Of a stretch of DNA of 64,000 nt, positions 1 to 3,000 are shown in pieces; position 1 is the first letter of the stretch, and every line of letters begins with the position of its first letter. The stretch is taken from positions 124,001 through 188,000 of the forward strand of contig NW_024055751.1 in NCBI RefSeq assembly GCF_902713615.1. Reading direction: 5' to 3'. This DNA is from Scyliorhinus canicula. Its lineage: Eukaryota. Position numbers: made by a program.

Positions 1-3000
1 ACATCACACGTGTCCTCAGTCTGACTCCACATAGGCGGTGCTCTGCGCATGCGCATTTTTCGACCCACTCCCCATCCAATGCTGAATCTTCCTCACAGCT
101 TCACTTTGTGATCACAAGCCCATGAGAACCGGCTCGGGCGGGCACGGTGCAGTTGGTATTAGACTCAGTTTGATGGACAACAACGCTGCCTCCGCGGTAT
201 TGTCTCTGGTCCTGAACACTACCGAGAGCTACTGAACACAGATCGACAGGATCCAACATGAAGCTGAGCTTCACTTTAGTGATTATCTCCCTGAATTTCT
301 TACTCTTCTCTCCGTGTGAGTGTGATCACTGTATCTGGCGGAATATTTCACACATCAGATCTGTCATGCTGTACTAATCGTAACATACAGTTTCCTCTAT
401 TGTATATCTTGCTATGTCATGTTGTATTTGATTGTGCTATATCATATTCTCGCGGTATGTGTGATATTAAATTATTCATGTTATTTTACATCTCAGATGC
501 TGCTGGCAGTGAAGAAGTATCACAGTCTCCAGAGTCAATCGTTGTTACCGAGGGGGATGTTGCATCCTTGGCCTGTTCCACCACAGTAGCAGGAATGATC
601 CTACAATGGTACAAATACCCGGATGGAACCATGCAGCACCTGGCGAGCGGTACCAGTGCTCAGGGCCGGATCACAGCTCGGTTCATTTCAGCAGAGAAAC
701 ACAGCTCTCTGAATGTTAGTGACGTTCGAGTGACAGACACCGCCACCTATCTCTGTGCAGTGAGGCACAGTGAACTGAAAACCATTCAGCGCCGTACAAA
801 AACCTGACGGGTGATTCTGAAAGTGTGCAGCCTGTGCGGTTATCCGAGAGCAAGGATGTTAGTAACACTGTTCCGTGGATATGCCGCAATGAGTGAGGTC
901 TGTTCATGATTTGGGGTTGCTCTTTCATATCAGAAAAGAAGGGCCATAATCCATTTAAATTCATTTTATTTATTTAGAAGTCACAACCAGAGAACACGGG
1001 TTCCATGGTGCTTCAAGATAATAATCATTGTGCCGTTCGGCGAGCCAATATTCAGAGGCCGTTGTCTATTTCTTGTTTTAAATCAAATTCCAGACTGAGA
1101 CACATTCCAGTTTTGTTACAGGGATGAGTGATGCACAATCAGTCTCCCAGGATCCGTCCGAATTGAAGGCTCTAGAAAGACAGTTCAGTTATAATCACTC
1201 CATATCCAAGAGCTTTCTCTGCCTATGTAGGCCGGTCAATATTACGGGATAACTGCGAGATATTTACTGAGGAGGTATCGGCTGAGACATTGTGCTATGT
1301 CACAAGATTTCTCACATCGGTTGGTTTGAACAAGGATAAAAACAACAGTGCAAATGTTTGATTAACAAACCTGCCAATGTTTGTTCCCCGTGGGCCTGGG
1401 ATGGAATTAACCTGGCTGATCAAGGTGCTAAAAAAGACTACACAAATACTCGCGGAGGAGTTTTTTGCGGGTTCTTGGTTTTTATCTGATGCTGTGTTTC
1501 ACTGCACAGGAAAAGACCACCACACTTAGGCCGCTTATTTAATGAGCAACGGGCAGATGTTGTCTTCAGATTCCATCTTTTTACAGTTTTTACAGCCTTA
1601 CTACTTCATTAATAATCCAGTTTGGACACTGCTCGTTTCTGTCCATATCAGTGGATGATTCTTATTACCTGGGTTATATATTTGCAATCCATCCCTTCAA
1701 ACACAACTACTGTCACCGGAAACTGGGTCTGCAAGTAGTCCGCCTGTGAAAGAAGAGGATCTAAAGAGCAGAAGGTTAAACAGGATCAAGGTATTATCCT
1801 CTATCTAACTGTATGAGTCTGTGTAAATTCCCATCAATCTGTTAAACTGTCTTGATGAGCAAAATCCAGTACTCAATGTGCAAGATCCCCGCCAGTATTA
1901 TTAGAAACATGTCTGCCTGGATCTCTCAGTGAATGGGTATGGAATGACTCAGAGATTGAGAGGAGAGGGAATCCGAGCTCTGTTCAGCTCAATGTCCCAC
2001 CCAGACACGGCAAGGGAGCCAGGCCCACTGTGACAAAGGCCCACGGTGACATCACTGAGTATACGTCTGGCTTTGGTCTCATGTGACTTTCTAACTATCA
2101 TGTTGGGCTTTGCGCCCTCTGCTGGTGGATTCTGTTCAATCGGTTCAGAATGAGGGTTACTGAATAGACTTACGGTTTATTGATTTGTATGTCAAAACAT
2201 TAATGTCAGGAATGAGAACTGACTATCCAAATCTGGATTCTTCTCATTATTTCTTTCTCTGGTGCTATCTGTCGGAAGGCAGGTCCAACCCATTGCAACG
2301 TCACTGGGAGGCAGGTCGCAACTACCCCAGCGCTGGAACAGGAATCCAGACCGTTCTGGCTTTCCAATCTCCTGAGCAATCCCCAACCGTCCTTCGCAGA
2401 CAACATGAAATCGTCGGTGTGCTAAATAGCGAGGAGGAATGGTTTAGATTGCAGGATGGTATAGACGGACGGGCAGATGGGCAGAACAGTGGCAAATGGA
2501 ATTTAACCCTGATGCATTTTGGGAGGACGTAAATTGCAAGAAAATACACAATGAATGGCAGGATGCCAAGAAATACAGAGGCAAGAGGGGCCTTGTTCAT
2601 GCCCACAGATCCCCGCAGGCAACTGGACAAGTAGATAAGGTGGTGAAGGGATACTTGCCTTCATTAACTGTGGCATGGAATATAAGAGCAGGGAGGTAAT
2701 TATGGAGCTGTTTAAAACGCTGGTTAGTCTTCAGCTGGAGTATTTTGTGCACATCTGGTCGCACCTTACGGAAAGGATGTGATTATACCAGAGAGGGTGC
2801 CGAGGAGATTAATCAGGAGGCTTTCTGGGCAGGAATGTTTCAGCTATGAGGTGAGGCTGGATAGGCTGGGATATTATCCTTAACGCAGAGAATACTGAGG
2901 AGGACCTAATCGAGGTGTTCAAAATTATGCGTAATATAGATAGGAAGATACCTTTCCATTAGTAGAGGGGTCAATAACGAGGGGGCGTAGATTTAAGGTC

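What the first reader, a model, noticed from the sequence alone, without database searches (positions are those of the whole stretch)
497..765. Unusually compact V domain family with short CDR1, almost no CDR2 and an atypical FR2
Seen: V1 has 10 residues between the first Cys and the Trp, and the second Cys is the 50th residue counting from the Trp, versus longer spans in V2 of this window. FR2 reads WYKYPDGTMQHL, lacking the Q-x-P-G motif (V2: WYSQQPGKAP). Decayed paralogs at about 5960 and 10725 keep the same short spacing, so it is a family trait, not damage. Leader, splice sites and RSS are all intact. Known: IgNAR and NAR-TCR V domains lack CDR2, and FR2 forms the V-V pairing surface. Inference: a TCR V lineage that may pair or bind antigen unconventionally.
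Basis: partly seen in the sequence, partly recalled or inferred. Interest (0 to 1): 0.65.

Follow-up and report, generated by a model that had tools for sequence, protein, structure and literature searches.

The report
Compact T-cell receptor V gene segment

Summary
Window 258-804 (+) is a complete germline V gene segment. It has a leader exon, a phase-1 intron, an 89-codon V exon (497-765) and a consensus 23-spacer RSS. Ten residues separate Cys1 from Trp, and Cys2 is residue 50 from Trp. The other window V genes give 57-59. All 60 best solved V domains are 4-7 residues longer over the matched stretch.

Sequence and predicted fold place it with TCR V-alpha domains. The short CDR1 is ordinary: its spacing equals that of mouse TRAV13D-1. 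The shortening lies in FR2, C' and CDR2. Counted by hand in the IMGT way, CDR2 is 0-1 residues. The model keeps short C' and C'' strands joined by a two-residue turn, so the domain is not IgNAR-like.

Two decayed paralogs share the short spacing. TRAV/TRDV genes with no or minimal CDR2 are in print for salmonids and other teleosts, and for cattle and sheep. Salmon TRAV3 is used in productive rearrangements.

Verdict: a new member of a known kind. Unconventional pairing is untested. The species, any orthologs and expression could not be checked.

The parts
258..315 (+). V1 leader exon (L-part1): ATG at 258, 19 whole codons of a hydrophobic signal-like peptide plus one base of a split codon
   Evidence: The translation of 258-314 is MKLSFTLVIISLNFLLFSP.
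316..496 (+). V1 leader intron, phase 1, 181 nt: donor GTGAGT, acceptor ...ACATCTCAG
497..765 (+). V1 V exon. It carries Cys1, Trp, Leu (in SLNV) and Cys2 in the canonical order. CDR1 is about 5 residues and the C'-C'' hairpin is minimal.
   Evidence: One search gives the translation P0001. One search gives Pfam V-set at 9.8e-09. One search gives TCR alpha V best hits. Searches give the model and fold hits.
766..804 (+). V1 recombination signal: heptamer CACAGTG, 23-nt spacer, nonamer ACAAAAACC. The heptamer starts at nt 13 counted from the first base of the Cys2 codon.
5943..6230 (+). Decayed V1 paralog (relic 1). It has frameshifts and a stop, has lost Cys2 and has a decayed RSS. FR2-CDR2 is as short as in V1, with a further 8-nt deletion.
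10728..10880 (+). Decayed, truncated V1 paralog (relic 2). It has the same ACCATGC-to-GGTAC spacing as V1, and similarity is lost after about 10880.
4371..4712 (+). V2, the comparator: an intact conventional-length TCR alpha/delta-type V exon. Its RSS is CACACTG, a 24-nt spacer, then ACAAAAACC.
8277..8549 (-). V3, a comparator pseudogene: the Trp codon is a stop and the RSS has decayed.
11821..12057 (-). V4, a comparator and probable pseudogene: the Trp position is Arg and the RSS has decayed.

Best explanation
V1 is a germline, functional-looking variable gene segment of a T-cell receptor alpha/delta-type locus. It belongs to a small, old and mostly dead subgroup whose hallmark is a shortened FR2/C'-CDR2-C'' region.

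Shown:
- The gene has the full V-gene anatomy: split leader, phase-1 intron, V exon and 23-RSS.
- Its closest solved relatives by sequence and by predicted fold are TCR V-alpha domains.
- It has 4-9 fewer residues between Trp41 and Cys104 than the comparators.
- The shortening is shared with two decayed paralogs.

Inferred:
- It rearranges by RAG at its 23-RSS to a J-alpha, or to D-delta/J-delta.
- It is expressed as the V domain of an alpha or delta chain.
- It folds as a normal V-set sandwich in which a short C' strand (QHLAS) turns through two residues (GT) into a short C'' strand (SAQ). The domain therefore offers almost no CDR2 loop, and ligand contact falls to CDR1, CDR3 and the partner chain.

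This is the same solution as the CDR2-less TRAV3 of salmonids and the CDR2-less or 1-3-residue-CDR2 TRDV1 genes of ruminants. Which chain uses it, alpha or delta, is open.
For: - Anatomy.
- Family: V-set family at 9.8e-09, above the curated cut-off.
- PDB sequence search: the best hit is mouse TRAV13D-1 at 5.4e-14. Of the 60 listed rows, 54 are named TCR alpha, V-alpha or TCR constructs, 1 is TCR delta, 1 is unnamed ('Receptor A') and 4 are antibody constructs.
- ESM Atlas: the first hits are TCR alpha V clusters, scores 0.94-0.95.
- Model: AlphaFold2 with a 4-row window alignment gave pLDDT 81.5 and pTM 0.72, with strands C 35-40, C' 46-50, C'' 53-55 and D 58-63, and pLDDT 85 over residues 41-60.
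- Fold search: all 40 listed rows are chains of TCR entries, TMq 0.68-0.80.
- Selection argument: V1 has kept its ORF, splice sites and a perfect consensus RSS. Its paralogs, about 64-65% identical, have collected frameshifts, stops and truncation. That argues for selection on V1.
- Precedent, passages read:
  - Salmonid TRAV3 lacks CDR2 entirely, and TRAV3-1 was found joined to 78 of 118 functional TRAJ in productive transcripts (PMC8559430).
  - Most bovine TRDV1 have a 3-residue CDR2 and four genes have none (PMC2846910).
  - The TRDV1 table for human, bovine and sheep lists [8.1.4] and [5.3.4] among its CDR lengths (PMC7824213).
Against: - No J, D or C element was found in the window: my motif scan gave 0 hits. 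Locus identity therefore rests on similarity alone.
- There is no expression or rearrangement evidence.
- Two of the three family members in the window are dead, and the neighbours V3 and V4 are pseudogenes. The region may be a decaying edge of the locus.
- The RSS starts at nt 13 from the Cys codon, not nt 15. Nt 15 is the layout reported as canonical for fish V-alpha, and a zebrafish V with the RSS at 13 gave mostly out-of-frame joints (PMC10322711, passages). V2 has the canonical nt 15.
- The FR2-CDR2 piece alone matches no solved V domain. The glutamine usual in W-Y-x-Q is absent, so pairing could be impaired.
- The model rests on an alignment of only four window sequences. The single-sequence model failed, with pLDDT 46.8.
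- My CDR2 count was made by hand, not by IMGT tools.
Confidence: 0.72

Rival explanations
1. V1 is an open but unused V gene (an 'ORF' in IMGT terms). On this reading it is the last survivor of a dying subgroup, and its truncated C' strand or off-register RSS keeps it out of the productive repertoire.
For: - Relics 1 and 2 are dead.
- V3 and V4 are pseudogenes.
- The RSS starts at nt 13 instead of nt 15 (with PMC10322711).
- FR2 lacks the usual glutamine, and the FR2-CDR2 piece matches no solved V domain.
- The authors treated the bovine CDR2-less TRDV1 genes as ORF until expression is shown.
Against: - The heptamer and nonamer are perfect consensus, the splice sites are intact, and there is no stop in 89 codons, although the subgroup is old.
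- The V-set model is confident, with pLDDT 81.5.
- Salmon CDR2-less TRAV3 genes are productively used.
Confidence: 0.17
2. V1 is a V dedicated to delta chains. It would be used in gamma-delta receptors that do not dock on MHC, so a CDR2 loop is dispensable. It would join D-delta segments, so the V-alpha/J-alpha microhomology register does not matter.
For: - CDR2 of 3, 1 or 0 residues is typical of mammalian TRDV1-type genes.
- The RSS is out of the V-alpha register.
- A TCR delta chain (1ypz_E) is among the listed hits at 2.2e-10.
Against: - The best sequence hits are V-alpha; the fold hits are chains of TCR entries, two of them named V-alpha.
- The closest published analogue in fish, salmonid TRAV3, is an alpha-chain V.
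- In nurse shark the same V segments serve both alpha and delta in five of seven delta families, so the distinction may be moot.
Confidence: 0.3
3. V1 is an IgNAR-like or NAR-TCR-like domain that works as a single domain, or stacks or pairs unconventionally. This is the strong form of the first reader's idea.
For: It rests only on the reduced CDR2 region and the atypical FR2.
Against: - 0 of 60 listed sequence hits and 0 of 40 listed fold hits are IgNAR V domains.
- The model keeps C' and C'' strands.
- V1 has its own leader exon. By my recollection of Criscitiello et al. 2006, which I did not read here, NAR-TCR supporting V-delta genes have none.
- The F-strand motif YLCAV and the CAVR end are typical of V-alpha.
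Confidence: 0.06

Closest known systems
Salmonid/teleost TRAV3 subgroup (TRAV genes that completely lack CDR2-IMGT; PMC8559430)
   Same: - It is a TCR alpha/delta-locus V gene from a fish, with a normal leader and RSS and an essentially absent CDR2.
- The overall Trp41-to-Cys104 span is comparable. The reported lengths are FR2 17, CDR2 0 and FR3 35-36 for three named TRAV3 genes. From these I compute 50-51 residues counting Trp as 1, against 50 in V1.
- It is used in productive transcripts.
   Different: - No sequence comparison was possible, because no TRAV3 sequence was on hand.
- Homology or convergence is therefore undecided.
- By my unverified reading, the V1 source is a cartilaginous fish.
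Ruminant TRDV1 genes with short or absent CDR2 (PMC2846910, PMC7824213; Reinink & Van Rhijn 2009 was cited there but not held)
   Same: These are TCR V genes with a CDR2 of 3, 1 or 0 residues. [5.3.4] and [8.1.4] appear among the CDR lengths listed in the TRDV1 table.
   Different: - The bovine CDR2-less genes carry one 9-residue deletion, from the last FR2 residue into FR3.
- In V1 the shortening is spread out: one residue after Trp and three in C' against mouse TRAV13D-1, or one in CDR1, one in FR2 and six before G-R against V3 and V4.
- The bovine genes are delta-type, and their function is unproven.
Mouse TRAV13D-1 and other mammalian V-alpha domains (best solved relatives)
   Same: - The Cys-Trp spacing is the same.
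- The FR3 pattern is the same (G-R-x-T ... S-S-L-x-x-S ... D-x-x-T-Y-L-C-A).
- The predicted fold is the same.
   Different: - V1 is 4 residues shorter between Trp and Cys2.
- It lacks the W-x-x-Q-x-P-G pattern.
IgNAR V / NAR-TCR V
   Same: The only shared feature is a reduced CDR2 region.
   Different: - There is no detectable closer similarity.
- V1 keeps C' and C'' in the model.

Membership tests
TCR alpha/delta variable gene segment (TRAV/TRDV) | V-set immunoglobulin fold with 1st-Cys, conserved Trp, a hydrophobic residue at position 89 and 2nd-Cys | tested here: met
   Pfam V-set is at 9.8e-09. The residues are visible in P0001. The model has pLDDT 81.5.
TCR alpha/delta variable gene segment (TRAV/TRDV) | Split leader with a phase-1 intron in front of the V exon | tested here: met
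   ATG at 258, donor GTGAGT at 316, acceptor at 496.
TCR alpha/delta variable gene segment (TRAV/TRDV) | 23-spacer RSS directly 3' of the V exon | tested here: met
   CACAGTG, 23 nt, ACAAAAACC. This spacer type is shared with TRBV, TRGV, IGHV and IGLV (established knowledge), so it does not discriminate among them.
TCR alpha/delta variable gene segment (TRAV/TRDV) | Closer to V-alpha/V-delta than to other V classes | tested here: met
   In one search, 54 of 60 listed rows are named TCR alpha or TCR constructs and 1 is delta. In one search, all 40 listed rows are TCR entries. In one search the top clusters are TCR alpha V. No tree was built, because no non-mammalian reference sequences were on hand.
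TCR alpha/delta variable gene segment (TRAV/TRDV) | Linkage to J-alpha, D/J-delta, C-alpha or C-delta, and rearranged transcripts | not testable with these tools
   The window holds no J-like or C-like element (0 hits in my scan). No transcript or vertebrate genome collection was open.
CDR2-less TRAV/TRDV (salmonid TRAV3, ruminant TRDV1 set 9) | CDR2-IMGT of 0 residues | tested here: inconclusive
   This is a hand count. After Trp, 14 residues fill FR2 and 35 remain up to Cys2. CDR2 is therefore 1 if FR3 has 34 residues and 0 if it has 35. In the model the C'-C'' turn is 2 residues.
CDR2-less TRAV/TRDV (salmonid TRAV3, ruminant TRDV1 set 9) | Sequence homology to those subgroups | not tested
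   No sequences of these genes were available. Figures and supplements of the papers are not held.
IgNAR V / NAR-TCR V | Loss of the C'' strand and CDR2 (established knowledge) and similarity to NAR V | tested here: not met
   0 of 60 rows and 0 of 40 listed rows are IgNAR. The model has C' 46-50 and C'' 53-55.
NAR-TCR supporting V-delta | No leader exon of its own (a feature recalled, not read here) | tested here: not met
   V1 has an ATG-initiated hydrophobic leader exon with a donor site.

The most novel reading that the evidence does not exclude
V1 would represent an ancient lineage of alpha/delta V genes with a minimal C'-C'' hairpin and a glutamine-less FR2. On this reading the lineage is homologous to the CDR2-less TRAV3 of teleosts and so predates the split of cartilaginous and bony fishes. 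It would be kept because it serves a receptor that docks without CDR2-alpha contacts. That receptor could be an innate-like or non-classical-MHC-restricted alpha-beta TCR, or a gamma-delta TCR. The out-of-register RSS would favour a restricted set of junctions.
Probability: 0.1. Interest if true: 0.55.

Novelty: new member of a known kind. Interest (0 to 1): 0.3.

Why it matters
CDR2-alpha is one of the germline-encoded loops said to give TCRs their bias toward MHC helices. V genes that do without it bear on how obligatory those contacts are. If this gene comes from a cartilaginous fish and is expressed, it would extend the known range of near-CDR2-less V-alpha/delta genes beyond teleosts and ruminants to the oldest jawed-vertebrate lineage. 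For nurse shark, V-alpha cDNAs were reported with CDR2 of 5-7 residues only. Otherwise it is an ordinary entry for a TRA/TRD locus annotation.

Tried and rejected
- Single-sequence AlphaFold2 of the V exon gave pLDDT 46.8 and was discarded.
- blastn of the V1 locus (1-1100) against the window found only relic 1, at 71% over 83 nt. tblastn was needed to find relic 2.
- A strict RSS scan found only the V1 RSS. A scan for J-like segments (FGxG motif plus an upstream heptamer) found none.
- A literature search for five short V1 peptide motifs found 0 papers.
- Searches for cartilaginous-fish TRAV/TRDV annotation with CDR lengths gave no paper with CDR lengths beyond the nurse shark cDNA study. One search was swamped by unrelated words beginning with 'trav'. 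The stingray genome paper mentions only a TRAV/TRDV expansion. PMC12227049 has no passage on CDR2.
- Reinink & Van Rhijn 2009 (PMC2706379) is not held.
- Rfam found only three tRNA-like matches, which I read as SINE heads, and gave no clue to the species.
- No complex prediction was run. The window holds no partner chain, and I make no binding claim.
- I considered and rejected a non-rearranging V-set receptor, because V1 has a consensus RSS.
- I considered and rejected an Ig light-chain V, because the hits are TCR alpha.
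Full report
**Scope.** I do not take this contig for human. Its V exons are only about 26-37% identical to the human and mouse TCR chains they match. The flanks carry tRNA-like SINE heads, satellites and C2H2 zinc-finger arrays. No tool here could name the species. The window has no N. The spliced gene model was handled exon by exon. The leader exon was only translated and the V exon alone was searched and folded.

**What is there.** Window 258-804 (+) is a complete germline V gene segment.
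- The leader exon starts with ATG at 258. Its 19 whole codons give MKLSFTLVIISLNFLLFSP, and one further base precedes the donor GTGAGT at 316.
- A 181-nt intron ends ...ACATCTCAG at 496.
- The V exon runs 497-765.
- The RSS is a perfect consensus: CACAGTG at 766, a 23-nt spacer, then ACAAAAACC.
- Read from 499, the V exon gives 89 residues without a stop and ends ...TYLCAVR (P0001).
- Pfam assigns it to V-set at 9.8e-09, 35.8 bits against a cut-off of 26.

**The measurements.** Ten residues lie between Cys1 and Trp, and Cys2 is residue 50 counting Trp as 1.
- V2 (+, 4371-4670, intact) has 12 residues and position 59.
- V3 (-, 8549-8277, Trp codon now a stop) and V4 (-, 12057-11821, Arg at the Trp position) have 11 residues and position 57.
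- Against solved structures, phmmer found 1062 sequences at E<=0.001. In all 60 of the 60 listed rows the matched stretch of the solved chain is 4-7 residues longer than that of V1 (my arithmetic on the table).
- V1 is therefore more compact than its neighbours and than every one of its 60 best solved relatives.

**Where the shortening lies.** The best hit, mouse TRAV13D-1 (5.4e-14), aligns from Cys1 to Trp without any gap. The 'short CDR1' is thus an ordinary V-alpha length.
- CDR1 is 5 residues by IMGT-style counting, using the IMGT position limits from established knowledge.
- That is inside the published ranges: 5-8 for nurse shark V-alpha cDNAs (PMC5931798, passages) and 4-9 for salmonid TRAV (PMC8559430, passages).
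- All the missing residues lie between Trp and the G-R-x-T motif that opens the D strand.
- HMMER places one gap right after Trp and three in the C' strand.
- MAFFT against the window's own V genes places one in CDR1, one before the FR2 proline and six just before Q-G-R.
- Counted the IMGT way, with FR2 filled to position 55, 14 residues follow Trp and 35 remain up to Cys2. CDR2 is then 1 residue if FR3 has 34 and 0 if it has 35. This is my hand count, not an IMGT tool result.

**Atypical FR2.** FR2 reads W-Y-K-Y-P-D-G instead of the W-Y-x-Q-x-P-G pattern that V2 shows.
- The 36-residue FR2-CDR2 piece of V1 alone matched no V domain in the PDB at E<=10. Its only two hits were unrelated chance matches.
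- As a control, the matching 42-residue piece of V2 matched 4477 sequences, the best at 1.8e-08.

**Fold.** Single-sequence AlphaFold2 failed, with pLDDT 46.8.
- With the four-row alignment of the window's V exons (A1), the model reached pLDDT 81.5 and pTM 0.72.
- Its strands are 7-10, 21-28, 35-40 (C), 46-50 (C'), 53-55 (C''), 58-63 (D), 68-74 (E) and 83-88 (F). pLDDT is 85 over residues 41-60.
- The model keeps the V-set topology. A five-residue C' (QHLAS) turns through G-T into a three-residue C'' (SAQ).
- Foldseek against the PDB listed 40 rows, all chains of TCR entries, two of them explicitly V-alpha domains, with TMq 0.68-0.80.
- The ESM Atlas feature search also put TCR alpha V clusters first, at 0.94-0.95.
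- No IgNAR V domain appears among the listed rows.
- The G strand is J-encoded and absent from the model. The model rests on a very thin alignment.

**Family trait.** tblastn found two V1-like relics on the + strand.
- Relic 1 (5943 to about 6230) aligns to V1 across the whole exon and the RSS remnant. Identity is 189 of 293 aligned columns (64.5%). It has a stop and frameshifts and has lost Cys2.
- Relic 2 (10728 to about 10880) is recognisable only through FR2-CDR2. Beyond that the global alignment is not meaningful, and a tRNA-like SINE head follows at 11074-11147.
- Trp to the GGTAC anchor is 42 nt in V1 and 34 nt in relic 1.
- ACCATGC to GGTAC is 21 nt in both V1 and relic 2.
- From GGTAC to ATCACA both V1 and relic 1 have 21 nt (my reading).
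- Neither relic has extra sequence in this region, so the short form predates the duplications.
- V1 alone has kept its ORF, splice sites and consensus RSS at this divergence. I read that as a sign of selection, which is an inference.

**What it most likely is and does.** It is a functional-looking TRAV/TRDV-type gene segment. It would rearrange through its 23-RSS to J-alpha or to D/J-delta. It would then contribute a V domain whose CDR2 is reduced to a tight turn, leaving CDR1, CDR3 and the partner chain to make ligand contacts.
- The rearrangement and expression steps are inferred. The window has no J-like or C-like element (0 hits in my scan).

**Comparison with what is known.** V genes of this kind are in print.
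- All members of salmonid TRAV3 'completely lack CDR2'. The trait also occurs in goby, cod, sea bass and barramundi.
- Salmonid CDR2-IMGT lengths range from 0 to 10.
- TRAV3-1 was found rearranged to 78 of 118 functional TRAJ in productive transcripts (PMC8559430, passages).
- The lengths given there are FR2 17, CDR2 0 and FR3 35-36 for three named TRAV3 genes. From these I compute a Trp-to-Cys2 span of 50-51 residues, essentially that of V1 (50).
- Most bovine TRDV1 have a 3-residue CDR2. Four genes and one sheep gene lack it through a deletion running from the last FR2 residue to the fifth FR3 residue (PMC2846910, passages).
- The TRDV1 table for human, bovine and sheep lists [8.1.4] and [5.3.4] among its CDR lengths (PMC7824213, passages and table text).
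- Trout TRBV6 and bovine TRAV genes without CDR2 are cited. I did not read those papers, and Reinink & Van Rhijn 2009 is not held.
- For cartilaginous fish I found only the nurse shark cDNA study, which gives V-alpha CDR2 of 5-7 residues. Searches found no paper on shark TRAV/TRDV with a shorter CDR2.
- Figures and supplements, where such alignments would sit, could not be seen. Subscription papers such as Criscitiello 2010, Deiss 2019 and Pettinello 2017 (recalled) were not read.

**Extra feature.** Counted from the first base of the Cys2 codon, the V1 heptamer starts at nt 13. The V2 heptamer starts at nt 15. Both keep T8-G9.
- It gives nt 15 as the typical V RSS position.
- It describes a zebrafish V whose RSS sits at 13 and whose joints are dominated by out-of-frame products.
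- If the same microhomology-guided joining operates here, V1 would be handicapped for V-alpha/J-alpha joining. That fits either low use or use with D-delta. This is a lead, not a result.

**Verdict.** I rate it a new member of a known kind, with modest interest. The bolder readings are an ancient CDR2-less lineage shared with teleosts and a receptor that docks without CDR2-alpha. Both remain possible but untested.

Noticed in passing
window 754-804 and 4659-4712: The V1 RSS heptamer starts at nt 13 from the first base of the Cys2 codon. The V2 heptamer starts at nt 15, with the variant heptamer CACACTG and a 24-nt spacer. A 2023 Nature paper (PMC10322711) gives nt 15 plus T8G9 as the canonical fish V-alpha layout and links an RSS at nt 13 to mostly out-of-frame joints.
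   Followed up: partly
window 8277-8549 (-) and 11821-12057 (-): Two related V exons lie in the opposite orientation to V1 and V2. Both have lost the conserved Trp codon (one to a stop, one to Arg) and have decayed RSS. The mixed orientation means one set would need inversional rearrangement, but the position of J and C is unknown.
   Followed up: partly
window 4464-4589 (+): The V2 FR2-CDR2 piece (WYSQQPGKAP...) is antibody-light-chain-like: on its own its best PDB hits are light chains. The whole V2 exon matches both antibody constructs and human V-delta-1 and V-alpha chains.
   Followed up: partly
window 11074-11147, 13142-13217, 15560-15632 (all -): Three tRNA-like Rfam matches are probably heads of tRNA-derived SINEs. 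ARAGORN lists seven tRNA-like elements in all. One abuts relic 2, and a similar element lies just upstream of V3.
   Followed up: no
window 9546-10379 (-), 22615-23646 (+), 33463-34404 (-): Reverse-transcriptase fragments. The third also has an RNase H domain. They are retroelement debris between and beyond the V genes.
   Followed up: no
window 47878-48864 (-), 53490-53716, 62375-63292 (+): Tandem C2H2 zinc-finger arrays of about 10 fingers each. The V cluster (1-12 kb) therefore borders zinc-finger genes or pseudogenes.
   Followed up: no
window 17638-19923, 20722-21576, 28998-29450, 30071-31586, 41602-41962: Several long tandem-repeat arrays: a 31-bp unit with 74 copies, a CT-rich 18-bp unit, a 39-bp unit, a G-rich 27-bp unit with 55 copies and a 30-bp unit. 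The 28-36 kb stretch has raised GC, 0.55-0.58.
   Followed up: no
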